45,417 bases of DNA from Gemmatimonadales bacterium (GTDB lineage Bacteria; Gemmatimonadota; Gemmatimonadetes; Palauibacterales; Palauibacteraceae): assembly GCA_030636765.1 (NCBI GenBank), contig DAOVWI010000002.1, positions 1-45,417 on the forward strand, written 5' to 3'. The position numbers and the translations under genes were made by a program. Under the pieces are notes generated by a model that did no database searches, was not told where the DNA came from, and saw only the letters and a program-made list of their open reading frames with translations. This document shows, in pieces, positions 60 to 32,264 of the stretch (positions within the stretch are counted from its first letter, which is position 1; each line of letters begins with the position of its first letter).

Positions 60-1682
60 CTAGCTCGCTACACCCTGGCCGCGGAGAAAATCGATCAGCC
101 GCCCCGTGGCCCAGCGGCGTACAGCGGGCCTCCACAGAAATCCGAGCAGGGAGCCCAGCGGTCCGGCATCGATCGCGGCGATCTGGCGGCCGATTCTCGC
201 CTCGATGAGCTGCTCGAGCGCATGTCGCTGCGCGGGAGAGAGGGCGTCGTAGGAGGCGTCGAGATCGGGCACCTGATAGGCGGCCTCCTCATCCGGCTCG
301 TAGCTGACGACGTCGTCGAGCGTGCTCTCGATGACGCGGCGCGCATCGCGCCGCCCGGCACGGAAGTCGGCCTCCCTCCACTCGCGCGAGAACAGTCCCC
401 CGAAGTTGCCCAGGAAGTCGCCCGCCAGTCCCCCGGTAGGTGCTACCAGATAGAGGGGCATCGGCTCCTTGTCGTCGAGCCCGCCTGCCGCCTCGATGAG
501 GAAGATGAGCTTCGCCAGCCGGCTCCGGGCCGCACGCGTCTCCACCCTGGCCAGCACCTCCGGGTAGCGGGCCTCGATGCGGCCAATGTGCTCCTCCAGG
601 AGCTCGAGAACCGGGTCGGCACCGTCACTCCCGTCCGGGACGCGGTGATCGCACACCCGCTCGGCGAGCTCACCGACCAGGCGGCCGAGCTCCAACGCCT
701 CCGGGTCGGTTAGCGACTCGGCGATCTCCGGGAGACGATCCACCAGCGAGTGTAGGATCTCCAGCCGCTCGTTGGTGCGGTTCGCGCGGATCCAGTCCTT
801 GGAGCCACCCTGCCCGAGGAACGCACCGGCCAGGAGGCCCGCGACCTGGACCGCGGAGCTTGGCTCCGCGGGCGGTGGCTTTCCCGCCACCGCCGTCTCC
901 CGCAGGAACGGGTCAACCAACACGTAGCGCCAGTCGCCGCCGGAGTGCGGCGAGCGGTCCGCCAGACGTTTCGCCAGTCCGACCGGCTCGTTGTCGAACA
1001 GCCCGCCGTCCGTGTACCACATGTCGATCTCGGTCGACCCGGGTGGCAGAACGGCTCCCGGGAAGTCGCTCGCATCTCGCCGCAGGAGACGCGGCGGGAA
1101 GGCGAACGGAAAGCTTGCCGACGCTACCGCCGCCCGACGGATCTCCTCCCACACGGGTGCTCGGGCGCCGTCATCCCTGCTCAGCCCGAATCCGATCCAG
1201 TCGTCGAAGAGGCGCGTGCCGAACGATCGCTCGGGCGAGTTTCGGAAGCCGTAGCTCAGCTCGTACCGGACGCCGTGCAGGTTCGAGAGCGTGATGCCGA
1301 GCTGCAGCGAGTCGCCGAGGAGCGGTGAGGACCTGTCGTCCGAGGCTGGATCGGCGGTGATCAGAGCCCGGCTCATCTCTTCCAGAGCGGCGGCGTCGAG
1401 GATCGAGGAGCGCTTGACCGCGCGCGGCTTCAGGAGGATCGAAGCGTCCATGCCGTCGATCCATGCCCTCTCGATCCAGGGAAGGAGGTTCGGATTCACG
1501 ATGAGGGCACGGGCCGCCAGTGCCGCCGTGAGGGCGCCGGATGACGAGCCCGTGATGACGCCCACGCGCACGTTCGAGCCATGGCGGTTGCCCTCGAAGG
1601 CGCGGAGCAGCTCCGTCACGGCCCCCCCGGTATAGGCGCCGAGCGAGGCGCCGCCGCCCAGAATGAGTGCGATGTTCGGCAT
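60..1682 (-). CDS. patatin-like phospholipase with a roughly 250-aa C-terminal extension of unknown function
   Basis: 540-aa ORF. It has the glycine-rich GGGASLGAY motif, a GSSSG (GxSxG) nucleophile elbow and DGGLFDNEP (catalytic Asp, DGG motif). The ATG is at 1680-1682. It starts 9 nt after the stop of the upstream M23 gene on the same strand. Confidence 0.85.
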   Translation of the reverse strand: MPNIALILGGGASLGAYTGGAVTELLRAFEGNRHGSNVRVGVITGSSSGALTAALAARALIVNPNLLPWIERAWIDGMDASILLKPRAVKRSSILDAAALEEMSRALITADPASDDRSSPLLGDSLQLGITLSNLHGVRYELSYGFRNSPERSFGTRLFDDWIGFGLSRDDGARAPVWEEIRRAAVASASFPFAFPPRLLRRDASDFPGAVLPPGSTEIDMWYTDGGLFDNEPVGLAKRLADRSPHSGGDWRYVLVDPFLRETAVAGKPPPAEPSSAVQVAGLLAGAFLGQGGSKDWIRANRTNERLEILHSLVDRLPEIAESLTDPEALELGRLVGELAERVCDHRVPDGSDGADPVLELLEEHIGRIEARYPEVLARVETRAARSRLAKLIFLIEAAGGLDDKEPMPLYLVAPTGGLAGDFLGNFGGLFSREWREADFRAGRRDARRVIESTLDDVVSYEPDEEAAYQVPDLDASYDALSPAQRHALEQLIEARIGRQIAAIDAGPLGSLLGFLWRPAVRRWATGRLIDFLRGQGVAS

Positions 1683-5842: not shown

Positions 5843-7297
5843 TTACCAGGCTGACACTTCGACCGTCGTACTCTCAGGACCGGGCGCGTGTCCCTTCAGC
5901 GCGGCGCGTGCGGCGTGATAACCGCACATGCCGTGGACCCCGCCGCCGGGCGGCGTCGAAGCCGAGCAGAGATACACCCCGGAGATGGGCGTCGAGTACG
6001 GCACGCGCTGCAGGAACGGCCTGCCGATCACCTGACGGAGGATGTTGGCCCCGCCGGTGATGTCCCCGCCCACGTAGTTGGGATTGCGGGCCTCCAAGTC
6101 ACCCGGCCCGAGCGCGCTCCGCGCCAGGATACACTCGCGAAACCCGGGAGCGAAGCGCTCGATCTGGCCCTCGATCCTCTTGGTCATGTCATCGGGACAT
6201 CCGTTCGGAACATGGCAGTAGGCCCACGCCGTGTGGCGGCCCCGCGGGGCACGCGTCGGGTCGAAGAGACTCTGCTGAGCCAGCAGGACGAACGGCCGCT
6301 CCGGTGGCTTGCCCTCCCACACCTCGCGTTCGGCCGCCGCGATCTCCTCGAAGGTGCCTCCGACGTGGACCGTGCCGGCGAGGCCGCACTCGCGCGCTCG
6401 CCACGGTATCGGCTCGCCGAGCGCCCAGTCCATCTTGAAGACGCCCGGCCCGTATCGGTAACGCGACAGGCGTCTTCGGTACCGCGGCGGGAGCTGGTCG
6501 CCGGCGATCTCGAGCAGCTGGCGCGGCGTGGTCGAGAGGAGTGCGGTCGCCCCGGCGGGCAGGTCTGCCAGGCTGCGAACCGGCCGCAACGTCGTGATCT
6601 CCCCGCCCAGGTCTCGGAGAACATCGGCGAGCGCGTCGGCCAGCCTGCCCGATCCTCCTCTCGGGAAGGGCCAGCCCGTGAGGTGTCCCAGGATGGCGAG
6701 CACCAGGCCGAACCCCGCGCTCGGGCGCATCTCCAACGGAATAACAGCATGCGCGGCGAGTCCGGCGAAGAGCGCCCGCGCCCGGTCACCCTGGAAACGC
6801 CGGTCCACGAGGCTGCGGGCCGAGCCGGCCGCCTGCCGGGCGAAACGGGCGAACGCCAGCGGGTGCCGGGGCGCTCCGGGCGGACCGAGAAAGTCGGTCT
6901 CCACGCTTTCCCAGCCCTCCACGAGCGGGCGGAGAAGCCGTCCATACGCGTCTCCATCCGGACCGAGGTCCGCGGCGGTGTCGTCCACGGAGCGGCGCAG
7001 AATCACGGCGGTTCCACCGTCGAGCGGATGCGCCAGGGGTGATGGCGGGTGCACCCACGAAAGCCCCCGATCGTCGAGACGGAGCGATCGGAAGAAGGGC
7101 GACGCGACGCCGAGGGGGTGGATCGCCGAGCACACGTCGTGGCGGTAGCCTGGCAGCGTGAGCTCGGCCGTGCGCATGCCGCCGCCGATCGTGTCGCTCG
7201 CCTCCAGCACCGCCACCGAGCGCCCGGCCTGGGCTAGCACGATGGCCGCGGCCAGGCCGTTCGGGCCGGAGCCGACGACCACGGTGTCGGAGTCCAT
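5843..7297 (-). CDS. phytoene-desaturase-family NAD(P)/FAD-dependent oxidoreductase
   Basis: Dinucleotide fold VVVGSGPNGLAAAIVLAQAGRSVAVLEASDTIGGG directly after the ATG at 7297 (MDSDTVVV). The length and C-terminal PPGGGVHGMCGY region are typical of CrtI-like amine-oxidase-fold enzymes. The 50 upstream codons of the track ORF cover an intergenic tandem repeat and were rejected. Confidence 0.8.
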   Translation of the reverse strand: MDSDTVVVGSGPNGLAAAIVLAQAGRSVAVLEASDTIGGGMRTAELTLPGYRHDVCSAIHPLGVASPFFRSLRLDDRGLSWVHPPSPLAHPLDGGTAVILRRSVDDTAADLGPDGDAYGRLLRPLVEGWESVETDFLGPPGAPRHPLAFARFARQAAGSARSLVDRRFQGDRARALFAGLAAHAVIPLEMRPSAGFGLVLAILGHLTGWPFPRGGSGRLADALADVLRDLGGEITTLRPVRSLADLPAGATALLSTTPRQLLEIAGDQLPPRYRRRLSRYRYGPGVFKMDWALGEPIPWRARECGLAGTVHVGGTFEEIAAAEREVWEGKPPERPFVLLAQQSLFDPTRAPRGRHTAWAYCHVPNGCPDDMTKRIEGQIERFAPGFRECILARSALGPGDLEARNPNYVGGDITGGANILRQVIGRPFLQRVPYSTPISGVYLCSASTPPGGGVHGMCGYHAARAALKGHAPGPESTTVEVSAW

Positions 7298-7373
7298 GTG
7301 GTCCAACGAGTTCTCTCCTGTATCGACGACGACTCCGGAGCTGCGGCCGGAAGCCGTTCTCGGGAGGCACCTT

Positions 7374-7438
7374 CCGGCCGGTGAGCCGCCGGTTTTGCTT
7401 CCACGTTCCCCCGGCCGTGAGCCGCCGGTTTTGCTTGC
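7374..7438. repeat. intergenic tandem direct repeat (two copies, about 36-37 nt period)
   Basis: CCGGCCGGTGAGCCGCCGGTTTTGCTTCC at 7374-7402 is repeated as CCGGCCGTGAGCCGCCGGTTTTGCTTGC at 7411-7438. The 20-nt core GTGAGCCGCCGGTTTTGCTT is identical at 7381-7400 and 7417-7436. It lies between divergent starts at 7297 (-) and 7500 (+). Confidence 0.9.
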
Positions 7439-7499
7439 AGGCGCCACAGGCCGCGGGTAGCTTGCCGTGCTCTGCTAGCCAAAGGAAAGGTCACACGTA

Positions 7500-8681
7500 A
7501 TGCACGTTTTCGCCAAGTGCGAGAACTTTACCACCTCCCGCGAGCTCCGCGCGATCGGCCTGTATCCGTACTTCCAGCCTATCGAGGAATCGTGTGACAC
7601 CACCGTCGTCATCCGGGGCGAGCGCAAGATCATGGTGGGATCGAACAACTACATGGGCCTGACCCACGATCCGCGCATCCTCGAGGCGGCGAAGGCCTCT
7701 CTGGACCGATATGGAAGCGGCAACACCGGAAGCCGTTTCCTGAACGGCAACCTCGATATTCACGACCGGCTGGAGGAGGAGCTCGCCCGGTTCGTCGGCA
7801 AGGAGGCCGGGCTCGTCTTCAGCACCGGCTACCTGACGAACCTCGGCACGCTGAGCGCCCTGTGCGGCCGAAACGACACGATCTACGTTGACAAGTTCGA
7901 CCACGCGTGCATACAGGACGGCGCTCGGCTCGGATTCGGCCGCGTGCAGCGCTTCGCCCACGGCGACTACGACAAGCTGCGGCGAATGCTTGCCTCCGAG
8001 AAGGAGGAGCGGGGCAAGCTGGTAACCGTGGACGGGGTGTACAGCATGGAGGGCGATCTCGCGGATCTTCCCACCCTGGTCGAGTTTCGGAGGGAGTTCG
8101 CCGCCGGCCTCGTGGTGGACGACGCGCATTCGCTCGGCGTCGTCGGGCCGCACGGCGACGGTACCGCCGCCCACTTCGGCCTCACTGATGAGGTGGACCT
8201 GATCACGGGGACCTTCTCGAAATCCTTCGCCTCCATCGGCGGATTCGTGGCGGGCACCGAAACGATCATCGAGTACCTCCGGAACAACGCTCGGGCGCTG
8301 ATCTTCAGCGCGAGCATGCCGCCGTCGGCCGTGGCCACGGTGCTGAAGGCCCTCGAGATTATCCGTGAGGAGCCCGAGAGACGCGAGCAGTTGTGGTCGA
8401 ACACGCGGAAGATGATGGACGGTTTCCGCTCGATCGGTTTCGACATCGGGCCGACCGAGACGCCGATCGTGCCGATACTCGTAGGACCGATGGAGAAAAC
8501 CTTCCGCTTCTGGAGAGAGCTTTTCGACGCCGGAGTCTTCACGAATCCCGTCGTACCGCCCGCTGTGCCCGAGGGCAGCTGCCGGCTGCGAACCAGCTAC
8601 ATGGCCACCCACACCGAGGAGCAGCTCGACTTCGTTCTCGAGTGCGTCGAGAGGATCGGAAAGAAGCTGCAAGTAGTGTGA
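7500..8681 (+). CDS. alpha-oxoamine synthase, serine palmitoyltransferase-like (PLP-dependent acyl-CoA/ACP:amino acid C-acyltransferase)
   Basis: 393 aa. Contains GSNNYMGLTHDP, YGSGNTGSRFLNGN, FSTGYLTNLG and the PLP-lysine motif GTFSKSFASIGGF. From memory this matches SPT-type GTFSKS rather than the BioF or KBL variants. Confidence 0.85.
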   Translation: MHVFAKCENFTTSRELRAIGLYPYFQPIEESCDTTVVIRGERKIMVGSNNYMGLTHDPRILEAAKASLDRYGSGNTGSRFLNGNLDIHDRLEEELARFVGKEAGLVFSTGYLTNLGTLSALCGRNDTIYVDKFDHACIQDGARLGFGRVQRFAHGDYDKLRRMLASEKEERGKLVTVDGVYSMEGDLADLPTLVEFRREFAAGLVVDDAHSLGVVGPHGDGTAAHFGLTDEVDLITGTFSKSFASIGGFVAGTETIIEYLRNNARALIFSASMPPSAVATVLKALEIIREEPERREQLWSNTRKMMDGFRSIGFDIGPTETPIVPILVGPMEKTFRFWRELFDAGVFTNPVVPPAVPEGSCRLRTSYMATHTEEQLDFVLECVERIGKKLQVV

Positions 8682-8714
8682 GGGCTCGGGCCGCCGGGTG
8701 AGTCGCCGAAGATC

Positions 8715-9932
8715 TTGAACCGATCCTCGGAGCCCGGGCCGAACTCCGGCGTGGCCACCCGCTCCCGCCTGGACCCTATCGAGGTCCTTCCCGTAGCGCC
8801 GCGAAGCGATGGGATGGAGGCCTTCATCCGCCTGCCGTGGTCGATCTATCACGGCTACCGAACCTGGGTTCCGCCTCTGATCCGCGACGTGCGCGTCATG
8901 ATGGATCCGGAGCGCCACCCGTTTCATCGCCATTCGGAGGTTCAGGCGTTCCTCGCGCTGCGGGACGGCCGACCGGTCGGGCGGATCGCCGCGATCCACA
9001 ACCGGCGCCACGTCGAGTTTCACGAAGAGAAGGTCGGTTTCTTCGGGTTCTACGAGTGCGAGCAGGATGAGGCTGCATCGGCCGGCCTCCTGGACGCGGC
9101 GGCCGAATGGCTGAGCGAGCGGGGTCTCGAGGCGATGCGCGGCCCCACGAGCTTCTCCACCAACGAGGAGGCGGGCCTGCTGGTCGAAGGCTTCGACGAT
9201 CCGCCCGCCGTCATGATGGCGTACAACCCACCGTACTACGAGCGGCTGTTCGAGGTCTACGGCCTGAGTCCCTGCAAGACGCTCCTGGCCTACCACGTGT
9301 ACGCGAGCGAGCCGCCGGAGTATCTGGTCCGGGTCGCGGCCATCGTGGAGCGGCGTACCGGCGTGAAGGTTCGTCATCTGCGGATGCGCGATTTCGATAG
9401 CGAGCTCGAGATCGTTCGGGACATTTACAACGCGGCGTGGCGGCGCAACTGGGGGTTCGTGCCGATGACTGACGAGGAGATCCGGCACATGGCCCGGGAG
9501 CTCAAGCCGGTCGTCGATCCCCGTCTGACGCTGATTGGAGAGAACCCGGACGGAAGACCCGTGGGCTTCGCCCTCGCCCTGCCCGACTTCAACCAGGTGC
9601 TGCGTCGTTTGAACGGGAGGCTCTTTCCCTTCGGGTTGCTCAAGGCGCTCTGGCTGCGCCGACGGATCGACAGCCTCCGCGTCCTCACCCTGGGGGTGCT
9701 GGACGAGTACCGCGGCAAGGGCCTCGACGCGCTGTTCTACCTGGGCATCTTCCGGGGCGGCAATACGCAGGGAATCAACCAGGGCGAGTTCTCATGGGTG
9801 CTGGAGGACAACGTCATGATGCGGCGGCCGCTCGAGCGAATGGGGGCGCGCGTGCGCAAACGGTATCGTATCTACGATGTCTCGCTCCGAGCGTCCCCCT
9901 CCGAGTCGATGCCGGTTTTCGACCCGCGCTGA
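8715..9932 (+). CDS. GNAT-fold N-acyltransferase-like protein (about 400 aa, two-lobed)
   Basis: Starts 33 nt after the SPT-like gene. VLDEYRGKGLDALFY resembles GNAT motif A (R-x-x-G-x-G/A-like). The N-terminal FIRLPWSIYHGYRTWVPPLIRD and RIAAIHN blocks match a widespread uncharacterised roughly 380-400-aa acyltransferase family as I remember it. The start is uncertain: TTG at 8715, or alternatively GTG at 8751. Confidence 0.7.
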   Translation: MNRSSEPGPNSGVATRSRLDPIEVLPVAPRSDGMEAFIRLPWSIYHGYRTWVPPLIRDVRVMMDPERHPFHRHSEVQAFLALRDGRPVGRIAAIHNRRHVEFHEEKVGFFGFYECEQDEAASAGLLDAAAEWLSERGLEAMRGPTSFSTNEEAGLLVEGFDDPPAVMMAYNPPYYERLFEVYGLSPCKTLLAYHVYASEPPEYLVRVAAIVERRTGVKVRHLRMRDFDSELEIVRDIYNAAWRRNWGFVPMTDEEIRHMARELKPVVDPRLTLIGENPDGRPVGFALALPDFNQVLRRLNGRLFPFGLLKALWLRRRIDSLRVLTLGVLDEYRGKGLDALFYLGIFRGGNTQGINQGEFSWVLEDNVMMRRPLERMGARVRKRYRIYDVSLRASPSESMPVFDPR

Positions 9933-9945
9933 TGACCGGTCGTTC

Positions 9946-10899
9946 ATGACCGCTCGCCGCGTCCTCGTAACCGGTGCCACCGGATTCCTGGGAAGCCATG
10001 TGGTCGAGGCGCACCTCGAGGCCGGATGCAGGGTGCGGTGCTCGGTGCGAAGCACGAGCGACCTCCGGTGGCTGGAGGGCCTCGATGTGGAACGGGTCGA
10101 GCTGGACGTGCGCGATGCTTCGGGTCTCTCCGACGCTCTGGTGGGGATCGACACGGTGGTGCACGCCGCCGGGATTACGCGAGCTACGACGGAGGCGGAC
10201 TACTTCCGCGTCAATGCCACCGGGGCGGCGCGCCTCGCCGAGGCAGCCGTGAAGGCGGGGGTGTCCAGGTTCGTGCTGATTAGCAGCCTTGCCGCCCGGG
10301 GACCGGACGGGATGGCGGGCCCGGTCAGCCCCTACGGCGAGAGCAAGCGGCGCGGTGAGGATCTCGCGCGCCTCTTCGAGGAGAGAGTCGAGCTTGTCGT
10401 TCTCCGGCCCGGAGGCATCTACGGGCCGCGGGACACGGAGCTGCTGCCGCTCTTCCAGACGGCCGGACGCGGGTGGCTGATGGTCCCGGCCGGCGGCCCG
10501 CCTCTGCAGCCGGTCTACGCGACCGATGTCGCGCGGCTCACCGTCGCGGCCGCGACGCTCCCGTACGCCGGGGTGGGCCCGTTTCCAGTGGCGGAGGAGC
10601 GGGCGTATGGTTGGGACGAGGTTGCAGCCGGGCTCTCGTCCGCCCTCGGAAGGCGGGTACGATCGATCCCAGTCCCTGCCGGCGCGTTCATACTGGCTGG
10701 CGCCGCCCTCGAGAGAGGGGCGCGGCTCGTCCGCCGACGCCCGCCGCTCGACCGGCGCCGGGCCTTGGATCTGAGCCGGCATGGATGGACGTGCGACACA
10801 CGGCCGACGCGAGATGCGTTCGGCTGGCGGGCGCAGGTCCCGCTGGAAGCCGGGCTCGTGCGAACCGCGGAGTGGTACCGGCGAGTGGGGTGGCTGTAA
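9946..10899 (+). CDS. extended SDR, NAD-dependent epimerase/dehydratase-family reductase
   Basis: VLVTGATGFLGSHVV Rossmann motif directly after the ATG at 9946, and the catalytic YxxxK as SPYGESK. It starts 13 nt after the previous stop. Confidence 0.85.
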   Translation: MTARRVLVTGATGFLGSHVVEAHLEAGCRVRCSVRSTSDLRWLEGLDVERVELDVRDASGLSDALVGIDTVVHAAGITRATTEADYFRVNATGAARLAEAAVKAGVSRFVLISSLAARGPDGMAGPVSPYGESKRRGEDLARLFEERVELVVLRPGGIYGPRDTELLPLFQTAGRGWLMVPAGGPPLQPVYATDVARLTVAAATLPYAGVGPFPVAEERAYGWDEVAAGLSSALGRRVRSIPVPAGAFILAGAALERGARLVRRRPPLDRRRALDLSRHGWTCDTRPTRDAFGWRAQVPLEAGLVRTAEWYRRVGWL

Positions 10900-11753
10900 G
10901 CGCGGAGCGCCAGAGCGGGCTCCTGACGATCGACCGGGTGGCGATCGGCTACCTGGCGGTGTCCGGAGCGCTTGCCCTGGCGGGAGGCCTGAAGGGTCTG
11001 GCGATTGCGGCCGCCCACGGGCTGGCGATCGCCGCGATCTACGGCCTGGCGCGACGACCGATGCCGGCTAGCCACCTGGCCGTCTTCCTCCGGCTGATGT
11101 ATCCGATCATCGCGACGCCGCTCCTTTACCACGAGGTCGCGCTCCTTAGCCGCTTTTTCCATCCGGATTACTTCGACGGGGTCGTGCAGGGCTGGGAGGT
11201 GGCGATCTTCGGCTCTCAGGTGAGTCAGGAGGCGAGCCGGTGGCTGCCGGCCTTCTGGCTCTCCGAGTTCCTAAACCTCGGCTACGTGGCGTACTACCTG
11301 ATCATCCCCGGACTGGCGATCGCGTCGCAACGGTTCGGAGGGGGGGTCGGCCTGCACCGCTTCGCGGTCTCGGTCGCCCTCGGTTTCTTCGTGTGCTACG
11401 TGTGGTTCATTCTCTTCCCCGTTGTGGGGCCGCGCTACGCCTTCGGCCCCCTGGAAGGCGCGCTCTCCGATGGGAGATTCAACCGGATCGTCCGGACGAT
11501 TCTGGAGGGCGGCTCCTCCAAGGGAACGGCCTTCCCGAGCTCACACATTGCGGCGACGTGCTCGGCGTGGATCGCCGCGGGGCGAGAGGATCGACGCGTT
11601 CTGTGGCTCATGGCGGTGCCGGTTGGCGCGCTGGTGCTCGGAACGGTGTACGGGGGGTATCATTACGCTGTCGACGCTGCGGCCGGGCTGGCCGTGGCGG
11701 CCGCGGTCATGGTCGCGGCGCCACGGCTGGCGGCGGCGGCCTCGCCCGTGTGA
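10890..11753 (+). CDS. polytopic PAP2-superfamily membrane protein (lipid phosphatase / phosphotransferase type)
   Basis: Has multiple hydrophobic helices. FPSSHIAATCSAW (SxH, C2 motif) and GGYHYAVDAAAG (HxxxD, C3 motif) are present. I place the start at the GTG at 10890, overlapping the SDR stop by 10 nt. The upstream 139 codons of the track ORF lie out of frame inside the SDR gene. Confidence 0.7.
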   Translation: MAVSAERQSGLLTIDRVAIGYLAVSGALALAGGLKGLAIAAAHGLAIAAIYGLARRPMPASHLAVFLRLMYPIIATPLLYHEVALLSRFFHPDYFDGVVQGWEVAIFGSQVSQEASRWLPAFWLSEFLNLGYVAYYLIIPGLAIASQRFGGGVGLHRFAVSVALGFFVCYVWFILFPVVGPRYAFGPLEGALSDGRFNRIVRTILEGGSSKGTAFPSSHIAATCSAWIAAGREDRRVLWLMAVPVGALVLGTVYGGYHYAVDAAAGLAVAAAVMVAAPRLAAAASPV

Positions 11754-11835: not shown

Positions 11836-12390
11836 GTGGAAGAGCAGGTACTCGTAGAGCGCGCCAGGGCCGGTGATCGACTCGCCATGAGCCAGCTGTA
11901 TCAGGCTCACTCGAGGCGCGTCTACGCCGTCGTTCGGCGGCTGGCAGGCGATGACGATCTCGCGGCCGACCTCTCGCAGGATGCGTGGGTTCGAGCGTTC
12001 GAGCGCCTTCATCTGTACCGTGGCGAGGCGGCGTTCGGCACGTGGATGCACCGCTTGGCCACGAACGTGGCGCTCAACCGGCCGCGGCGGCGCACCAAGC
12101 GACCGGACGTCGAAGCGTCGGCCGTGGGGATGCGGACGTACGAAAAACCGTCCGACGAAGCGGTGATGAGTCGGCGGGTGCTGAGCGATGCTCTGGATAA
12201 ACTGCCCGATGGATATCGGCGCGTGCTCGTGATGCACGACGTCGAAGGTTGGACTCACGAGGAGATAGGGAAGTCGCTGGGCATCGCGTCCGGCACCTCG
12301 AAGTCACAGCTACACAAGGCACGCGCGCGGATGCGGCAGCTGATCGCCCCCTCCGCGGCAGCCACAGAAGCAGGAAATGGCGTGCAATGA
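11836..12390 (+). CDS. ECF (group IV) RNA polymerase sigma-70 factor
   Basis: Region 2 (AMSQLYQAHSRRVYAVVRRLAGDDDLAADLSQDAWVRAF) and region 4 HTH (VMHDVEGWTHEEIGKSLGIASGTSKSQLHKAR) are present. The GTG at 11836 is preceded by AAGGA 5 nt upstream. Confidence 0.85.
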   Translation: MEEQVLVERARAGDRLAMSQLYQAHSRRVYAVVRRLAGDDDLAADLSQDAWVRAFERLHLYRGEAAFGTWMHRLATNVALNRPRRRTKRPDVEASAVGMRTYEKPSDEAVMSRRVLSDALDKLPDGYRRVLVMHDVEGWTHEEIGKSLGIASGTSKSQLHKARARMRQLIAPSAAATEAGNGVQ

Positions 12391-13091
12391 TTGACCAGCG
12401 TTACGAACACCTGACGCTCGAGATGATCTCGGAGGTGCTCGAGGAGCCGGAGCTGCATCCGGAGGCGGCCGAGCATCTGGCTGCATGCGACGTGTGCAGC
12501 CTCGAGCACTCTTTGATGCGCCGAATGCTGATGGCGCTTTCGGGGCTCGGCGAGATGGATCCCCCTGCCGACGAGTGGGAACGGGTCGAGTCGAGGCTTC
12601 CGACCAAGCGGCTTGTGATCCCGATCCGGCCTCTCCACCTCTTCCGAGGATGGCCTGCGCAGGTAGCCGCGGCCATGATCCTCTTTGCGGGCGGCATCCT
12701 GGCCGGTCTCACGTTCATGGGTGGAGGTCCGGACGACGCCGCGACGTTGGTGTTGAACGGCGAGTCCCTGCCGAGCGTGGGCGACCCCGTACCGGGCGGG
12801 CCCGAGACTCGGTCACCGTTCGCTCTGGCGCAGTACTACGAGGCGGTCGCCGGTCTGGAACAGCTCAGAGCCCGGCCCGGCGGATCCGGCGATCTGCTGG
12901 AGGACCCGATGGCGACCACGGAGCGGCTGGTGCGGCTCGACGGGCTGATAGAGGCATCGCGTGAGGCGCTGGCCAACTCGCCCACGGATCCGGCGGTGAA
13001 CAACCTTCTTTTCGATCTGATCAAGGAGCGGGATGATCTCTCCCTCGGTCTGGAGAGCGCCGTTCATCTCGCCGGGCTCGACTACCGATGA
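12387..13091 (+). CDS. zinc-binding (ZAS, HxxxCxxC) transmembrane anti-sigma factor
   Basis: ATGA start/stop overlap with the sigma gene. The HLAACDVC motif and a single TM segment (WPAQVAAAMILFAGGILAGLTF) are present. Confidence 0.75.
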   Translation: MIDQRYEHLTLEMISEVLEEPELHPEAAEHLAACDVCSLEHSLMRRMLMALSGLGEMDPPADEWERVESRLPTKRLVIPIRPLHLFRGWPAQVAAAMILFAGGILAGLTFMGGGPDDAATLVLNGESLPSVGDPVPGGPETRSPFALAQYYEAVAGLEQLRARPGGSGDLLEDPMATTERLVRLDGLIEASREALANSPTDPAVNNLLFDLIKERDDLSLGLESAVHLAGLDYR

Positions 13092-14266
13092 TGTCGAAGC
13101 CGTATTCGCTTCTCTTCGCTCTCGGCCTGACGACCTCGATGGGTCTGGCTGGCCGGCTAGCGGCTCAGGAGCCGCCGATGCCGCCGGTGCCAGCGCCGGG
13201 GGACGCAGCCCGGGCGCCTCGAGTCGGCCAGCCCTGGCTGGGCGTGGGTCTCGAGACTCGCGTAGAGTGCCCCTCGGGTGGGAAGAAGCGAGACTGCAGT
13301 CGTTTCCTTCTGATCAGCTCGGTCGTCGTAGGCAGTCCGGCCGAGGCGGCGGGCATCGCCGTCGGCGACACCGTGGTGGAGATCGACGGTGCGACGCCGG
13401 AGACCGCGGAGTTCCGGCGCCGCCTGAGACGTCTCGAGGTGGGCACGGCGATTGAGGTCGTCGTGGGCCGGGTCGGGGAGCGGACCTCGCTGGAGGTCGT
13501 CCCGCGAGCGCGTCCGGACGTCGTGGCGATGCGGGTTCGCGCTCGACCGAGCGCCGTGTGGAACTGGGCGACGCCGGAAGGAGAGATGAGCCTGCCCATC
13601 ATCGTCGAGACGGCCGATTCGGCCAAGGCGAGCGTCTGGATGTTCAAGAACGGCGACGATCGTCACGTGGTGATCGTGCCGAGCAAGGATGGATGGAAGG
13701 TTCGGATCGTCGAGCGGGACGCTGAGGGCGCGTACGACGACGTCCGGCACCTGGAGGTGCAGGTGCGCGATCTTGAGGGCTACGTCGCGCAGAATGGTGA
13801 GGACATGCGGCGGGCGTGGGCCGAGCTGCGCGAACGGATCAGGACCGAGCTTACTCCGGAGATGGCAGCGCTTCGCGACTCGGTGCTTGCCGAAGCGCGC
13901 GTGAAGCTCGAGGCGGTACGGAAGGCCCGGTCGGCCTACGGATCCGGAAGAGCTCGCGTACGCTACGCGCCCCCTCCACACCTTCTGGAGGCCACTCGGC
14001 GGCTTGCCGGGGCGGAATTCGAGCCGCTCGGACCCGAACTCTCCCACGACGGTCTGGAGCAGGGGCTCCTGGTCCTGCACGTGATCGAGGGGACGCCGGC
14101 CTACCGGCTGGGCTTGCGCCGGGGTGACGTCGTCGTCGAGGTGGGCGGAACGGAGTGTAGCGACGTCTCCGACTTCCGGGATGCCATTCTCGGGACGACC
14201 GGGGGTGGGGTCGAGGTGAAGTGGGTACGCAAGGGCAAGGTAATGAAGAGCGTTCTCGATGAGTGA
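13088..14266 (+). CDS. secreted protein with two PDZ domains and no recognisable protease domain
   Basis: ATGA overlap with the anti-sigma gene. Signal-like MMSKPYSLLFALGLTTSMGLAGRLAAQ. PDZ-like blocks are LLISSVVVGSPAEAAGIAVGDTVVEIDG and LLVLHVIEGTPAYRLGLRRGDVVVEVGG. No GDSGG or other catalytic motif was seen. Confidence 0.8.
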   Translation: MMSKPYSLLFALGLTTSMGLAGRLAAQEPPMPPVPAPGDAARAPRVGQPWLGVGLETRVECPSGGKKRDCSRFLLISSVVVGSPAEAAGIAVGDTVVEIDGATPETAEFRRRLRRLEVGTAIEVVVGRVGERTSLEVVPRARPDVVAMRVRARPSAVWNWATPEGEMSLPIIVETADSAKASVWMFKNGDDRHVVIVPSKDGWKVRIVERDAEGAYDDVRHLEVQVRDLEGYVAQNGEDMRRAWAELRERIRTELTPEMAALRDSVLAEARVKLEAVRKARSAYGSGRARVRYAPPPHLLEATRRLAGAEFEPLGPELSHDGLEQGLLVLHVIEGTPAYRLGLRRGDVVVEVGGTECSDVSDFRDAILGTTGGGVEVKWVRKGKVMKSVLDE

Positions 14267-14355: not shown

Positions 14356-15531
14356 ATGGACGATGACCTTTCCGCTCGCGGCGCCCTCGAGGCCGATCTG
14401 GAGCGTCTGTCCGCAGAGCTGGCCCGAGCGTTCCAATCCTGGCGGCGGCAGCCCGAGCCGTGGGAGTTCGGCCGCACCAACGAGCTCGCGTGCAGAGCGT
14501 TTGCCATTCAGTATGCAGGTAACGCCCCGTACCGTCTCTACTGCGACAGGCTCGGGGTTTCTCCGGCCGATATAGATGAATGGCGGGATGTGCCGGCGGT
14601 CCCGACCGCCGCGTTCCGGCAGGTTCCCTTGTTCGTGGGCGATCCGGCCGAGGCGTCTCTGGAGTTCAGGACCAGCGGGACCACGCGGGGTCCGGGGCGG
14701 CGAGGGCGGCACCTAGTTCGAGACCCGGAGCTGTACAGGGCTTCCCTGGAAGCGGCGTTCCACCACTTCGTGCTGAAGAGGGCAGGTGGTGACGCCGACC
14801 GGATGCTCGTGGCCTCGCTGGTTCCACCGTTCTGCGATGCTCCGGACTCCTCGCTCTCCTGGATGGCGGACGCCGTCGTCTCCGGCTTCGGACGACCCGG
14901 CTCGACGTTTCTAGCCTCCGCTCGAGCCATCGATTGGCCCCGCGCCGAGCGCTTCGTGACTTCGGCCGCGGCCGCGCCCGACGCCGTTCCCGTTTGCCTT
15001 TTCGGGACGACGCTGGCGTTCGCCGAGTGGCTTCGGCGGCTGGAGGAGTCCGGCCTCTCCGTCTCCCTGCCGGAAGGCTCCGTCGCCATGGACACGGGAG
15101 GCTCGAAGGGAAGGGACGGACCCAGCCGAGAGCGGGTCATGAAGGAGCTCGCAGGACGGCTCGGTATCGCGTCGTCCTCCGTCATCAACGAGTTGGGCAT
15201 GACCGAGCTTCTCTCGCAGCGCTACGCACCGCTCGCCGGGGGCAGGCTGGGCGAATCCGCCGGCCCGCCCCCGCTTCGCGGACCGCCGTGGTTGCTGAGC
15301 CGCGCGCTTGACCCCGAGACGCTGGAGGAGCTGTCGGAAGGCGAAGTTGGCGTGCTCAACCACTTCGACCTGGCGAACGTCTGTAGCGTCTGCAGCATCC
15401 TGACGGAGGATCTCGGCGCGGTGACGGAGAACACGGTTTGCTGGGCGGGACGCTCGCCCGGGGCGCCACCACGCGGGTGCTCGCTGGCAACCGCGGAGCT
15501 CCTGAGGGCACAGGCAGGCCGGACCTCGTGA
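14356..15531 (+). CDS. LuxE-like acyl-protein synthetase (long-chain fatty acid ligase family)
   Basis: FAIQYAGNAPYRLYCDRLGVSPADIDEWRDVPAVPTAAFRQ and FRTSGTT...GRHLVRD match the LuxE family N-terminal and adenylation blocks as I know them. Confidence 0.8.
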   Translation: MDDDLSARGALEADLERLSAELARAFQSWRRQPEPWEFGRTNELACRAFAIQYAGNAPYRLYCDRLGVSPADIDEWRDVPAVPTAAFRQVPLFVGDPAEASLEFRTSGTTRGPGRRGRHLVRDPELYRASLEAAFHHFVLKRAGGDADRMLVASLVPPFCDAPDSSLSWMADAVVSGFGRPGSTFLASARAIDWPRAERFVTSAAAAPDAVPVCLFGTTLAFAEWLRRLEESGLSVSLPEGSVAMDTGGSKGRDGPSRERVMKELAGRLGIASSSVINELGMTELLSQRYAPLAGGRLGESAGPPPLRGPPWLLSRALDPETLEELSEGEVGVLNHFDLANVCSVCSILTEDLGAVTENTVCWAGRSPGAPPRGCSLATAELLRAQAGRTS

Positions 15532-15541
15532 GGGCCGAGCG

Positions 15542-16975
15542 ATGAGCGACGCTTTGGAGCTCTGGCATCTGCCGGGCCTCGACGCAGATGATCCGGCGCT
15601 GTGCTCCGGGTGGATCGAGGGGCGCACCGCTGCTGGCCGAGCCTTCCGAGTCCCCGCGCCGACCGCCGAGGGCGCAGCGCTAATCGCCGGAGAGGTTCGC
15701 CGGGCGGCGCTTCGGGCGCGCGGCGAGCGATCCCTGACCGAGGTGGTCCACTCGGTTGCGACGGCCGCTGGGCGCCTCGCCGAAGCGTCGGCCTCGGCTG
15801 GCGGCGAAGCGGTCCGGCTGCTGGCGGATGAACAGGGCTGGTCGGAGCCGCTGGCGCAGGAGACTCTCGCCGAGATGGGCCGGATCTGGACGGAGGAGTC
15901 GCTGTGGAGGGTGCTGCGCTCGGAGCTGCCCGATCCCCTAGTGCTCGAGGAGTTTCGCGTGGATCCCGAGGTGCGCGACGGGCTGCCGGAAGGCTCAGGG
16001 GGCGAGAGACGGCGGCGAGCTTCGGGGCCGCCGCTCCTCTTTCAGATCATGGCGGGGAACGTTCCGGGAGTCGCGGTCACCGCGGTCATGCGCGGGCTGC
16101 TCGTTCGCTCCGGGGTTCTGACGAAGCTGCCCGAGGAGGAGCCGGGCCTGGTCGTGCTCTTCGCGAGACACCTGGCGGAGGTAGATCCTCTGCTGGCCCT
16201 GTCGTTGGCGGCGACGTGGTGGCCCGCGGAAGAGGAGAATCCCCTGTGGAGCGAGTGGAGGGCCGAGGCCGGCAGGCTGGTCGTGTACGGCGGCGAGGCG
16301 GCTGTCCTCGGTGTGCGTGGCCGGGCACGCGCCGACCAGGAGATCATCTCCTACGGTCCGAAGCTCGGCGTAGGGGTGATTCTGCCGGGCACCGACGTGC
16401 CGGCTGCTGCCGGGGCACTCGCCCGCGATGTGTGTGCATACGAGCAGCAAGGGTGTGTCTCCCCCCGCCTGGTGTTCGTGCTCGGCTCGGCGGAGCCGTT
16501 CGCGAACGAGCTCGCGGGTGCCCTCGCCCGCGAGACCGAGCGCCTCCCGCGGCGGCCACTCCGCCCGGATGAGGCGGTAGCCATCCGATCGGCGCGTGCT
16601 GACGTGGAGTTCCGTGGGTACGCGCAGGGCGCGAGCCGCGTGCTCGCCAGCGAGAGGGACCTGGCCTGGACCGTTCTTCTGGACGACCCGCCCTGTCTGG
16701 AGGTCGAGCCCCTGCCGCGGGTAGTGCGCGTCTCCTGCGTTGGAACGCTTGAGATCCTGAAGAGGCTGATCGGGCCGCTGTCGGGTCGCATCCAGGCGCT
16801 CGGATACGCCGGGGACGGAGGGTTGCTGCGTCCGCTGGCGGAGGTGGCGGCCGACCTCGGCGTCGGCCGCCTGGCACCGCTAGGACGACTTGCCTGGCCG
16901 CCCGCCGACTGGAGGCATGACGGCCGCTACCAGCTGCTGCCGCTTCTGACGTGGACCGACTGGGAAGCGGAGTAG
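15542..16975 (+). CDS. LuxC-like acyl-CoA (acyl-protein) reductase
   Basis: Starts 10 nt after the LuxE-like gene. Contains IMAGNVPGVAVTAVMRGLLVRSGVLTKLPEEEP and the ALDH-like active-site context EQQGCVSPRLVFV. Confidence 0.8.
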   Translation: MSDALELWHLPGLDADDPALCSGWIEGRTAAGRAFRVPAPTAEGAALIAGEVRRAALRARGERSLTEVVHSVATAAGRLAEASASAGGEAVRLLADEQGWSEPLAQETLAEMGRIWTEESLWRVLRSELPDPLVLEEFRVDPEVRDGLPEGSGGERRRRASGPPLLFQIMAGNVPGVAVTAVMRGLLVRSGVLTKLPEEEPGLVVLFARHLAEVDPLLALSLAATWWPAEEENPLWSEWRAEAGRLVVYGGEAAVLGVRGRARADQEIISYGPKLGVGVILPGTDVPAAAGALARDVCAYEQQGCVSPRLVFVLGSAEPFANELAGALARETERLPRRPLRPDEAVAIRSARADVEFRGYAQGASRVLASERDLAWTVLLDDPPCLEVEPLPRVVRVSCVGTLEILKRLIGPLSGRIQALGYAGDGGLLRPLAEVAADLGVGRLAPLGRLAWPPADWRHDGRYQLLPLLTWTDWEAE

Positions 16976-32262: not shown

Positions 32263-32264
32263 GA

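What the first reader, a model, noticed from the sequence alone, without database searches (positions are those of the whole stretch)
7500..11753. Four-gene operon: SPT-like condensing enzyme, GNAT-fold acyltransferase, SDR reductase, PAP2 membrane enzyme. Candidate ceramide/sphingolipid-type pathway.
The four plus-strand genes are packed with 33-nt and 13-nt gaps and a 10-nt overlap. Gene 1 carries the PLP-lysine block GTFSKSFASIGGF plus GSNNYMGL and GSRFLNG, which fits serine palmitoyltransferase better than BioF or KBL as I remember them. Gene 2 is a roughly 400-aa GNAT-fold protein. Gene 3 is an extended SDR (GATGFLG, YGESK). Gene 4 is a polytopic PAP2 protein that retains the SxH and HxxxD motifs. 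Lipid phosphatases use those motifs, and so do IPC / sphingomyelin-synthase-type head-group transferases. The gene order (condensation, N-acylation, keto-reduction) mirrors the Spt, bCerS, CerR logic established for Caulobacter crescentus ceramide synthesis, with a possible head-group step added. No ACP or acyl-ACP synthetase gene is in the operon. The amino-acid substrate (serine, glycine, cysteate as in capnine/sulfonolipids, or alanine) cannot be read from the sequence. If the host is a Gemmatimonadota-like organism, such lipids would be little explored there.
Basis: partly seen in the sequence, partly recalled or inferred. Interest (0 to 1): 0.7.

Follow-up and report, generated by a model that had tools for sequence, protein, structure and literature searches.

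The report
Ceramide operon with AUR1-like head-group enzyme
This Gemmatimonadota operon encodes the three known bacterial ceramide-synthesis enzymes plus a membrane enzyme resembling yeast inositol-phosphorylceramide synthase, so the organism probably makes phosphosphingolipids; the pathway is known, and only the host phylum and the linked fourth gene are new.

Summary
Four co-directional ORFs lie at 7500-11753 with the stated spacing and motifs.

- Gene 1 is 53% identical to the crystallised Sphingobacterium serine palmitoyltransferase, against 35% for Kbl and 31% for BioF.
- Gene 2 is a tandem-GNAT protein, 34% identical over its full length to E. coli YghO. YghO is the published ortholog of Caulobacter CC_1154 (bCerS).
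- Gene 3 is 34% identical to the reductase at the CerR position of a Sphingomonas sphingolipid cluster.
- Gene 4 is a PAP2_3 protein. Its closest solved relative, by profile and by predicted fold, is yeast AUR1 (IPC synthase), not a PAP2 phosphatase.

I examined 80 species with a gene-2 homolog. The condensing enzyme is adjacent in 59, the reductase in 50, the PAP2_3 gene in 25 and all four in 23. Three different gene orders occur across several phyla. Fused Spt::GNAT proteins also exist.

The operon is therefore a new member of the known Spt-bCerS-CerR pathway in Gemmatimonadota. It has a plausible but untested ceramide phospho-head-group transferase attached. The head group and the lipids themselves remain unknown. 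Interest is moderate.

The parts
7483..7490 (+). Shine-Dalgarno-like AGGAAAGG, 9 nt upstream of the gene 1 ATG
   Evidence: Read directly from the sequence.
7500..8681 (+). Gene 1: serine palmitoyltransferase-like alpha-oxoamine synthase (Spt), 393 aa
   Evidence: NCBIfam best hit is SerpalmtaseCFB at 526.6 bits, below its cutoff of 640; bioF scores 384 and Kbl 356. PDB best hit is S. multivorum SPT 3A2B at 439 bits, against 247 for KBL and 242-246 for cysteate acyltransferases. Identity is 53% to 3A2B. In the NJ tree the gene falls in the clade of GNAT-linked AOS enzymes, separated from Kbl and BioF with 87% bootstrap.
8715..9932 (+). Gene 2: tandem-GNAT N-acyltransferase of the YghO / CC_1154 (bCerS) family, 405 aa from TTG; the true start may be GTG 8751
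   Evidence: 34% identity to E. coli YghO, E=2e-69. 35% identity to the Sphingomonas N-acetyltransferase at the cerS position, E=4e-71. YghO is listed as the CC_1154 ortholog in PMC9386255. AF2 model has pLDDT 84 and a tandem-GNAT fold. Spt::GNAT fusion proteins exist: P0128, P0191, P0242.
9946..10899 (+). Gene 3: extended-SDR reductase of the CerR (CC_1164 / ECD_02852) type, 317 aa
   Evidence: Pfam Epimerase 102.5 bits. 34% identity (E=7e-38) to the Sphingomonas NAD(P)H-binding gene upstream of acpR-spt. 29% identity (E=6e-34) to the E. coli epimerase in the aasR-epi-acpR-spt operon. NDUFA9 chains appear among the PDB hits, as reported for CerR. GATGFLG and YGESK are present.
10890..11753 (+). 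Gene 4: polytopic PAP2_3 membrane enzyme, AUR1-like; candidate ceramide phospho-head-group transferase, 287 aa
   Evidence: PAP2_3 53.7 bits against PAP2 24.6 bits. The family profile's best PDB hit is AUR1, E=1.5e-6 over about 230 positions. AF2 model has pLDDT 90. The top two Foldseek hits are AUR1 with TM 0.61-0.65; phosphatases score 0.41 or less. FPVxGPRY, FPSSH and HYxxD are invariant.

Best explanation
This is a Gemmatimonadota sphingolipid operon.

Gene 1 (Spt) condenses L-serine with a long-chain acyl thioester to give 3-ketosphinganine. The thioester is probably acyl-CoA, because the enzyme is of the Bacteroidota (CFB) type and no dedicated ACP or acyl-ACP synthetase gene is in the operon.

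Gene 2 (bCerS, a tandem-GNAT protein of the YghO/CC_1154 family) N-acylates the long-chain base. Gene 3 (CerR, an NDUFA9-like extended SDR) reduces the 3-keto group to give dihydroceramide. [quoted passage not shown]

Gene 4 is an AUR1-like PAP2_3 membrane enzyme with a His-His-Asp triad. It then most likely transfers a phospho-alcohol head group from a glycerophospholipid (PE, PG or PI) to the C1 hydroxyl of the ceramide. This would happen on the outer face of the inner membrane, giving a phosphosphingolipid and diacylglycerol.

What is shown: the gene families, their homology to proteins of experimentally studied clusters, and their conserved linkage. What is inferred: substrates, reaction order, head group and topology. 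My sub-confidences are about 0.85 for ceramide synthesis by genes 1-3 and about 0.55 for gene 4 as a ceramide phosphotransferase.
For: Gene 1. It is closest to characterised SPTs.

Gene 2. It is homologous over its full length to YghO and to the Sphingomonas N-acetyltransferase. Both sit in clusters laid out like Caulobacter CC_1165-CC_1154: aasR, cerR, acpR, spt, lptF2, lptG2, cerS. Its predicted fold is tandem GNAT. Natural Spt::GNAT fusions exist.

Gene 3. It matches the reductases at the cerR position as well as those two reductases match each other, 34% against 35%. It is also NDUFA9-like.

Linkage. Among 80 species with a gene-2 homolog, the AOS gene is within 3 kb in 59, the SDR in 50, PAP2_3 in 25 and all four in 23. 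Three gene orders occur, in Gemmatimonadota, Eisenbacteria, Acidobacteriota, Nitrospiraceae and Planctomycetota. These lineages include Bacteriovoracaceae and Sphingobacteriales, which are known sphingolipid producers.

Gene 4. AUR1 is its best match by sequence profile and by fold. In 13 of 18 family members the SMS-type PAP2_C domain is also hit. FPVxGPRY aligns with AUR1 FPAAPPWY where phosphatases carry KX6RP. The C3 arginine of phosphatases is Thr, as in AUR1. A bacterial AUR1 homolog, BT_1522, is a proven PI-dihydroceramide synthase (PMC9246714).
Against: - Gene 1 is below the NCBIfam equivalog cutoff for every Spt model (526.6 against 640).
- Gene 2 has no NCBIfam hit and only a borderline Pfam GNAT hit.
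- I had no Caulobacter, Bacteroides or BT_1522 sequence, so no direct comparison was made.
- The tree is neighbour-joining, with only E. coli BioF and Kbl as outgroups.
- For gene 4 the AUR1 matches are modest (E=1.5e-6 by profile, 1e-3 by Foldseek, 20-21% identity). PAP2 phosphatases share the same catalytic motifs.
- No inositol, CDP-alcohol or other head-group supply gene is in the window or recurs near the four-gene loci.
- 55 of the 80 loci lack an adjacent PAP2_3 gene.
- I found no lipid data for any Gemmatimonadota.
Confidence: 0.72

Rival explanations
1. Genes 1-3 make ceramide as above, but gene 4 is a lipid phosphate phosphatase. Possible substrates are ceramide-1-phosphate or long-chain-base phosphate, PGP, undecaprenyl-PP or lipid A phosphate. 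It would trim or recycle a phosphate rather than install a head group.
For: Databases name the family 'phosphatase PAP2 family protein'. The generic PAP2 model also hits all 18 members. LpxE and PgpB are the next-best PDB profile hits over the C2/C3 region. Caulobacter builds its phosphosphingolipids through a ceramide kinase route rather than an AUR1-type enzyme.
Against: The phosphatase matches cover only about 70 residues, whereas the AUR1 match covers about 230. Fold similarity to phosphatases is TM 0.41 or less, against 0.61-0.65 for AUR1. The C1 KX6RP motif and the C3 arginine that bind a phosphomonoester are absent, as in AUR1. No ceramide kinase gene is in the window.
Confidence: 0.2
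2. The condensing enzyme uses an amino acid other than serine (alanine, glycine or cysteate). The operon would then make 1-deoxyceramides, or capnine/sulfonolipid-type or other N-acyl amino-ketone lipids.
For: The sequence does not reveal the substrate. Gene 1 misses the Spt equivalog cutoffs. The same enzyme set is reported to make 1-deoxyceramides from alanine. Sulfur-containing 1-deoxy sphingolipids are abundant in nature.
Against: Gene 1 scores 439 bits to SPT and only 242-246 bits to the cysteate acyltransferases 7u7h and 28eh. It is 53% identical to a biochemically characterised SPT. There is no cysteate synthase gene nearby. By inference, an AUR1-like transferase needs the C1 hydroxyl, and only a serine-derived base has one.
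Confidence: 0.08

Closest known systems
Bacterial ceramide pathway Spt / bCerS (CerS, CC_1154, YghO) / CerR (CC_1164) of Caulobacter crescentus, E. coli B and Sphingomonas (Olea-Ozuna 2021; Stankeviciute 2022; PMC9386255; PMC11087976)
   Same: The same three enzyme families occur and are homologous over their full lengths: PLP condensing enzyme, tandem-GNAT N-acyltransferase and NDUFA9-like SDR reductase. They are clustered on the genome.
   Different: There is no AcpR or AasR and there are no LptF2/G2 paralogs. The Spt is of the Bacteroidota (CFB) type rather than the Rhodobacteria type. The genes form one tight operon, Spt-bCerS-CerR-PAP2_3. There is no ceramide kinase/CPG-type head-group set.
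Sphingobacterium multivorum serine palmitoyltransferase (PDB 3A2B, 8GUH)
   Same: 53% identity over 387 residues. The PLP-lysine block, the DDAHSLGV block and the PPAVP loop region are conserved.
   Different: Gene 1 is below the NCBIfam CFB-Spt equivalog cutoff and comes from a different phylum. In Bacteroidota the three genes are usually not clustered.
AUR1 inositol phosphorylceramide synthase (yeast; PDB 9VJ3, 9VJ4, 9IVC) and its Bacteroides homolog BT_1522 (PI-dihydroceramide synthase, PMC9246714)
   Same: PAP2_3 family with the whole-protein fold (TM 0.61-0.65). Both have the His-His-Asp triad in FPS(S/L)H and HYxVD. Both have the P-x-x-(G/P)-P-(R/W)-Y block in place of C1 and Thr in place of the C3 arginine. 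Both are linked to ceramide synthesis.
   Different: Identity is only 20-21%. There is no Kei1-like partner. No inositol-phosphate synthase or PI synthase gene is nearby, so the head group may be ethanolamine-P or glycerol-P rather than inositol-P. No comparison with BT_1522 itself was possible.
PAP2 lipid phosphate phosphatases (PgpB, LpxE/LpxF, YodM)
   Same: They share the C2 and C3 catalytic His/His/Asp residues and are polytopic membrane proteins.
   Different: Gene 4 has no KX6RP C1 motif and no C3 arginine. The similarity is only local (about 70 residues) and fold overlap is poor.

Membership tests
Serine palmitoyltransferase (bacterial Spt, alpha-oxoamine synthase family) | PLP-binding lysine and the conserved His/Asp/His active-site blocks of AOS enzymes | tested here: met
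   GTFSKSFASIGGF, DHACIQDG and DDAHSLGV align column for column with S. multivorum SPT 3A2B.
Serine palmitoyltransferase (bacterial Spt, alpha-oxoamine synthase family) | Closer to characterised SPTs than to BioF, Kbl, ALAS, CqsA or cysteate acyltransferase | tested here: met
   Bit scores to PDB chains: SPT 439, KBL 247, cysteate acyltransferase 242-246, BioF up to about 230, ALAS up to 191, CqsA 148. The NJ tree separates the clade from Kbl and BioF with 87% bootstrap.
Serine palmitoyltransferase (bacterial Spt, alpha-oxoamine synthase family) | Passes a curated NCBIfam Spt equivalog cutoff | tested here: not met
   SerpalmtaseCFB scores 526.6 against a cutoff of 640, BetaP 404.5 against 500 and AlphaP 324.6 against 670. 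It is the best-scoring family but below the trusted score, so I call gene 1 'Spt-like'.
Serine palmitoyltransferase (bacterial Spt, alpha-oxoamine synthase family) | Catalyses the condensation of L-serine with a long-chain acyl thioester | not testable with these tools
   This needs an enzyme assay.
bCerS / CerS (CC_1154, CCNA_01212, YghO) bacterial ceramide synthase | Full-length homology to the N-acyltransferase of experimentally studied sphingolipid clusters | tested here: met
   34% identity (E=2e-69) to E. coli YghO and 35% (E=4e-71) to the Sphingomonas N-acetyltransferase. PMC9386255 lists yghO/ECD_02850 as the ortholog of CC_1154.
bCerS / CerS (CC_1154, CCNA_01212, YghO) bacterial ceramide synthase | Direct similarity to Caulobacter CCNA_01212 itself | not tested
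   The sequence was not obtainable. Stankeviciute 2022 (PMC8891067) is not held, and the single genome scan returned other taxa.
bCerS / CerS (CC_1154, CCNA_01212, YghO) bacterial ceramide synthase | GNAT-type acyltransferase fold and genomic coupling to Spt | tested here: met
   Tandem-GNAT model with pLDDT 84 and Foldseek E=9e-13. The AOS gene is adjacent in 59 of 80 species. Spt::GNAT fusions exist.
CerR (CC_1164) ceramide reductase | Homology to the epimerase/dehydratase-type reductase encoded beside acpR-spt | tested here: met
   34% identity (E=7e-38) to the Sphingomonas gene and 29% (E=6e-34) to the E. coli ECD_02852-type gene, both over the full length.
CerR (CC_1164) ceramide reductase | NAD(P)-binding GxxGxxG, YxxxK catalytic pair and NDUFA9 similarity | tested here: met
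   GATGFLG and YGESK are present. Many NDUFA9 chains are among the PDB hits at 1e-10 to 1e-6. NDUFA9 homology of CerR is stated in PMC11087976.
CerR (CC_1164) ceramide reductase | Periplasmic, peripheral inner-membrane location | not testable with these tools
   The Rossmann motif begins at residue 8 and no signal peptide is visible. The proteobacterial homologs look the same.
AUR1 / IPC synthase - SMS type lipid phosphotransferases (Pfam PAP2_3) | PAP2_3 above the gathering score and stronger than generic PAP2 | tested here: met
   53.7 bits (cutoff 27) against 24.6 bits for PAP2 (cutoff 27.2). All 18 of 18 relatives hit PAP2_3 and 13 of 18 also hit PAP2_C.
AUR1 / IPC synthase - SMS type lipid phosphotransferases (Pfam PAP2_3) | His-His-Asp triad retained, with the phosphatase C1 KX6RP and the C3 Arg missing | tested here: met
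   H219, H258 and D262 are invariant. FPVxGPRY aligns to AUR1 FPAAPPWY, and T252 takes the place of the C3 Arg, as in AUR1 (STMY...HHY).
AUR1 / IPC synthase - SMS type lipid phosphotransferases (Pfam PAP2_3) | Whole-protein similarity to a solved IPC synthase rather than to a phosphatase | tested here: met
   By profile, AUR1 gives E=1.5e-6 over positions 38-266 while phosphatases match only positions 199-271. By Foldseek, AUR1 gives TM 0.61-0.65 and E=1e-3, while phosphatases give TM 0.41 or less and E of 0.39 or more.
AUR1 / IPC synthase - SMS type lipid phosphotransferases (Pfam PAP2_3) | Transfers a phospho-head group from a glycerophospholipid to ceramide; identity of the head group | not testable with these tools
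   No head-group supply genes are nearby. This needs biochemistry.

The most novel reading that the evidence does not exclude
The PAP2_3 gene defines a prokaryotic clade of AUR1-like ceramide phospho-head-group transferases. This clade travels with Spt-bCerS-CerR in Gemmatimonadota, Eisenbacteria, Acidobacteriota and a few other phyla. These abundant soil and sediment lineages would then make complex phosphosphingolipids (CPE, CPG or IPC type) by the same chemistry as eukaryotic IPC and sphingomyelin synthases. That route differs from the Caulobacter kinase-based one, and no lipid of this kind has been reported from these phyla.
Probability: 0.45. Interest if true: 0.6.

Novelty: new member of a known kind. 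Interest (0 to 1): 0.42.

Why it matters
Bacterial sphingolipid synthesis (Spt, bCerS, CerR) has been established since 2021-2022. Genomics already predicts it in about 40 phyla, so finding it in one more MAG lineage is not surprising.

Two things are useful here. First, there is concrete, checkable evidence that Gemmatimonadota carry a complete, tightly packed operon. This phylum is common in soil and sediment, and I found no sphingolipid report for it. Second, an AUR1-like PAP2_3 gene is repeatedly linked to the ceramide genes in several phyla.

The enzymes that attach phospho-head groups to bacterial ceramides are known in only a few cases: BT_1522 in Bacteroides and the CPG genes in Caulobacter. 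This gene family is therefore a ready candidate for a simple heterologous-expression test. It could also explain unassigned environmental phosphosphingolipids.

Tried and rejected
- Obtaining the Caulobacter reference sequences. Stankeviciute 2022 (PMC8891067) is not held. The supplements of PMC11334938 hold no sequences. I used published orthologs in annotated E. coli and Sphingomonas records instead.
The 13-sequence version worked but returned only MAG-dominated taxa, with no Caulobacter.
- Sequence searches of gene 2 and gene 4 against PDB found nothing useful. Only a profile and predicted structures were informative.
- The first bootstrap script timed out.
I rebuilt it from database proteins.
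- I looked for head-group clues by clustering all ORFs around 25 four-gene loci (the 23 counted plus relatives L001 and L004). The only recurrent extra gene was a class-III aminotransferase, directly adjacent only in L008 and L015 and 4-6 kb away in the other six loci, so I judged it uninformative.
- Literature searches for Gemmatimonadota sphingolipids, and for PAP2 linked to Spt/bCerS clusters, found nothing relevant.
- Readings considered and rejected for gene 1: BioF or Kbl, a CqsA-type autoinducer synthase (148-229 bits) and a capnine/sulfonolipid CapB-type enzyme (242-246 bits).


Full report
**Observation**

The four + strand ORFs are real: 7500-8681 (393 aa), 8715-9932 (405 aa, TTG), 9946-10899 (317 aa) and 10890-11753 (287 aa). 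Gene 1 has an AGGAAAGG 9 nt before its ATG. No terminator-like hairpin lies inside the block.

Two start codons are uncertain. Gene-2 homologs are about 376 aa and align from about residue 20, and residues 1-18 are disordered in the model. A 99%-identical database protein for gene 4 is 322 aa. Neither affects the conclusion.

**Host**

The closest gene-2 and gene-4 homologs come from Gemmatimonadales, Longimicrobiales, Palauibacterales and other Gemmatimonadota MAGs. The best genome hit is a Gemmatimonadota MAG with 89% gene-1 identity.

**Gene 1**

- Pfam gives Aminotran_1_2.
- In NCBIfam the top model is the Bacteroidota-type serine palmitoyltransferase: 526.6 bits, below its cutoff of 640. 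bioF (384) and Kbl (356) score lower.
- Against PDB the best chain is Sphingobacterium multivorum SPT (439 bits). It aligns end to end with conserved PLP-lysine and His/Asp/His blocks.
- Other PDB scores are lower: Sphingomonas SPTs 292, KBL 247, cysteate acyltransferases 242-246, BioF up to about 230.
- In a neighbour-joining tree with 200 bootstraps, gene 1 sits inside a clade of AOS enzymes that are all encoded next to a gene-2 homolog. That clade also contains the Sphingobacterium and Sphingomonas SPTs and the E. coli B-type SPT. It separates from E. coli Kbl and BioF with 87% support.
- Identities are 53% to S. multivorum SPT, 35% to Kbl and 31% to BioF.
- The tree is simple and has few outgroups, but it agrees with the bit scores.

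**Gene 2**

Sequence libraries say little: a borderline GNAT hit in Pfam, nothing in NCBIfam and nothing in PDB. The family is nevertheless large. It has 1,733 representatives at E of 1e-30 or better among 50%-identity clusters.

The AlphaFold model is good (pLDDT 84, pTM 0.83). It has a tandem-GNAT fold resembling MshD, glucosamine N-acetyltransferase and other two-domain GNATs.

The link to bCerS came from annotated records.
- Gene 2 is 34% identical over its full length to E. coli YghO (E=2e-69).
- It is 35% identical to a Sphingomonas parapaucimobilis N-acetyltransferase (E=4e-71).
- The E. coli locus reads lptF, lptG, AOS, ACP, epimerase/dehydratase, fatty acyl-AMP ligase, yghO.
- The Sphingomonas locus reads NAD(P)H-binding protein, ACP, AOS, lptF, lptG, N-acetyltransferase, with three other genes interspersed.
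- This is the layout of Caulobacter CC_1165-CC_1154: aasR, cerR, acpR, spt, lptF2, lptG2, cerS (PMC11324152).
- PMC9386255 explicitly lists yghO/ECD_02850 as the ortholog of CC_1154, and ECD_02852 as the ortholog of CC_1164.

Independent support comes from natural fusion proteins with an AOS domain followed by this GNAT domain: P0128, P0191 and P0242. A direct comparison with CCNA_01212 was not possible.

**Gene 3**

This is an extended SDR (Epimerase 102.5 bits) with GATGFLG and YGESK.
- It is 34% identical (E=7e-38) to the Sphingomonas gene just upstream of acpR-spt.
- It is 29% identical (E=6e-34) to the E. coli ECD_02852-type gene.
- Those two reference proteins are themselves only 35% identical.
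- NDUFA9 subunits of complex I are prominent among its PDB hits. This matches the published description of CerR (PMC11087976).

**Gene 4**

PAP2_3 scores 53.7 bits against 24.6 bits for generic PAP2. I aligned 18 cluster-linked relatives. FPVxGPRY, FPSSH and HYxxD are invariant, every member hits PAP2_3, and 13 also hit the sphingomyelin-synthase-type PAP2_C domain.

A profile of this family finds yeast AUR1, the catalytic subunit of inositol phosphorylceramide synthase, as its best solved relative (E=1.5e-6). The alignment covers about 230 positions. In it FPVaGPRY pairs with FPAAPPWY, aFPSsH with AFPSLH and YlryHYavDalaG with YLTHHYFVDLMAG. The phosphatases LpxE, PgpB and YodM match only the last 70 residues or so.

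The canonical phosphatase C1 motif KX6RP is absent. The C3 arginine is replaced by an invariant Thr, as in AUR1.

The AlphaFold model (pLDDT 90, pTM 0.89) has two AUR1 structures as its top Foldseek hits (TM 0.61-0.65, 20-21% identity). PAP2 phosphatases follow at E of 0.39 or more and TM of 0.41 or less.

A bacterial AUR1 homolog, BT_1522, has been shown genetically to be the phosphoinositol-dihydroceramide synthase of Bacteroides thetaiotaomicron (PMC9246714). So there is precedent for this chemistry in bacteria.

**Conservation of the cluster**

Close relatives (gene 2 at 77% identity) and a more distant one (57%, on a 2.8-Mb contig) keep the order AOS-GNAT-SDR-PAP2_3. It is followed there by an ECF sigma factor, a putative anti-sigma factor and a PDZ protein.

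A scan of one genome per species found at least 598 genomes with a gene-2 relative. The best 80 span Gemmatimonadota, Eisenbacteria, Zixibacteria, Ignavibacteria, Bacteroidota, Planctomycetota, Binatia, Acidobacteriota, Nitrospiraceae, Spirochaetia and Bacteriovoracaceae.

Genes within 3 kb of the GNAT gene in those 80 loci:

| Gene | Loci |
|---|---|
| AOS | 59 |
| SDR | 50 |
| PAP2_3 | 25 |
| All four | 23 |

Three gene orders occur. The order 1-2-3-4 is found in Gemmatimonadota and Eisenbacteria, 3-4-2-1 in Acidobacteriota, and 3-1-2-4 elsewhere. Linkage that survives rearrangement across phyla argues that the PAP2_3 enzyme works with the ceramide genes. Many loci are cut by contig ends, so the counts are lower bounds.

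**Mechanism**

The best-supported reading has four steps:
1. Spt condenses serine with an acyl thioester.
2. The tandem-GNAT bCerS N-acylates the base.
3. CerR reduces the 3-keto group.
4. The AUR1-like enzyme moves a phospho-alcohol from a glycerophospholipid onto the ceramide C1 hydroxyl, releasing diacylglycerol.

Use of acyl-CoA is inferred from two points. The Spt is of the CFB type, and the AcpR/AasR pair that Rhodobacteria need is absent (PMC9386255). Serine as substrate is inferred from the similarity to characterised SPTs. It is also inferred from the fact that an AUR1-type transferase needs a C1 hydroxyl.

The order of steps 2 and 3 is disputed in Caulobacter and cannot be read here. 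The head group is unknown. No inositol or CDP-alcohol genes are in the window or recur near the four-gene loci.

**Novelty and score**

The three-gene pathway is established. Its presence has been predicted by genomics in 9 and then about 40 phyla (PMC11334938). The core of the finding is therefore a new member of a known kind.

I found no paper that mentions sphingolipids in Gemmatimonadota, or a PAP2/AUR1-type gene linked to Spt-bCerS-CerR clusters. These searches cover only the held library. The recurrent four-gene module is therefore a modest but testable lead on how uncultured soil and sediment phyla decorate their ceramides. I score interest at 0.42.

Noticed in passing
window 11836-14266 (+); also L001 11426-13935, L004 11008-13393, L006, L007: An ECF sigma factor, a putative anti-sigma protein with no Pfam hit and a double-PDZ protein follow the lipid operon directly. 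They stay with it in relatives down to 57% gene-2 identity. This may be an envelope-stress circuit tied to the sphingolipid genes.
   Followed up: partly
window 14356-16975 (+): A LuxE-like acyl-protein synthetase and a LuxC-like acyl-CoA reductase sit about 2.6 kb downstream. The pair is conserved in L001, L006 and L007 but not in L004. It is a fatty-acid activating and reducing pair of unknown role.
   Followed up: partly
window 5843-7447 (-): An FAD-dependent amine-oxidase / phytoene-desaturase-like gene is transcribed divergently from gene 1. It is conserved at 69% identity in the same position in L001 and L006. In L004 a pyridine-nucleotide disulfide oxidoreductase takes this position.
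   Followed up: no
proteins P0128, P0191, P0242, P0121 (not in the window): Natural fusions of an Spt-like AOS domain to the bCerS-type tandem-GNAT domain exist (777-780 aa). There is also a protein with two copies of the GNAT module (784 aa).
   Followed up: partly
L086 (E. coli PN43 record NZ_MG591698.1), L088 (Streptomyces plasmid), L089 (Roseomonas plasmid): The gene-2 family includes E. coli YghO in a complete aasR-epi-acpR-spt plus lptF/lptG-paralog cluster. A Streptomyces plasmid carries AOS-GNAT-epimerase followed by a condensation-domain gene. Roseomonas replicons carry lptF/G-like genes, a sterol desaturase, the GNAT gene and an NTP transferase.
   Followed up: partly
window 60-1682 (-): A patatin-like phospholipase is conserved at the same relative position in L001-L003. 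This is another lipid-active enzyme in the neighbourhood.
   Followed up: no
window 31500-33500: G+C drops to 0.555 against about 0.67 for the rest of the window. The dip spans the end of a 1125-aa BTAD/AAA/TPR regulator and an HD_5/MASE9 gene.
   Followed up: no
L008 195-1718, L015 6350-7666 and six other four-gene loci: A class-III aminotransferase recurs within a few kb of the four-gene cluster in 8 of the 25 loci clustered. One is also near the Sphingomonas cluster. It is absent from this window.
   Followed up: partly
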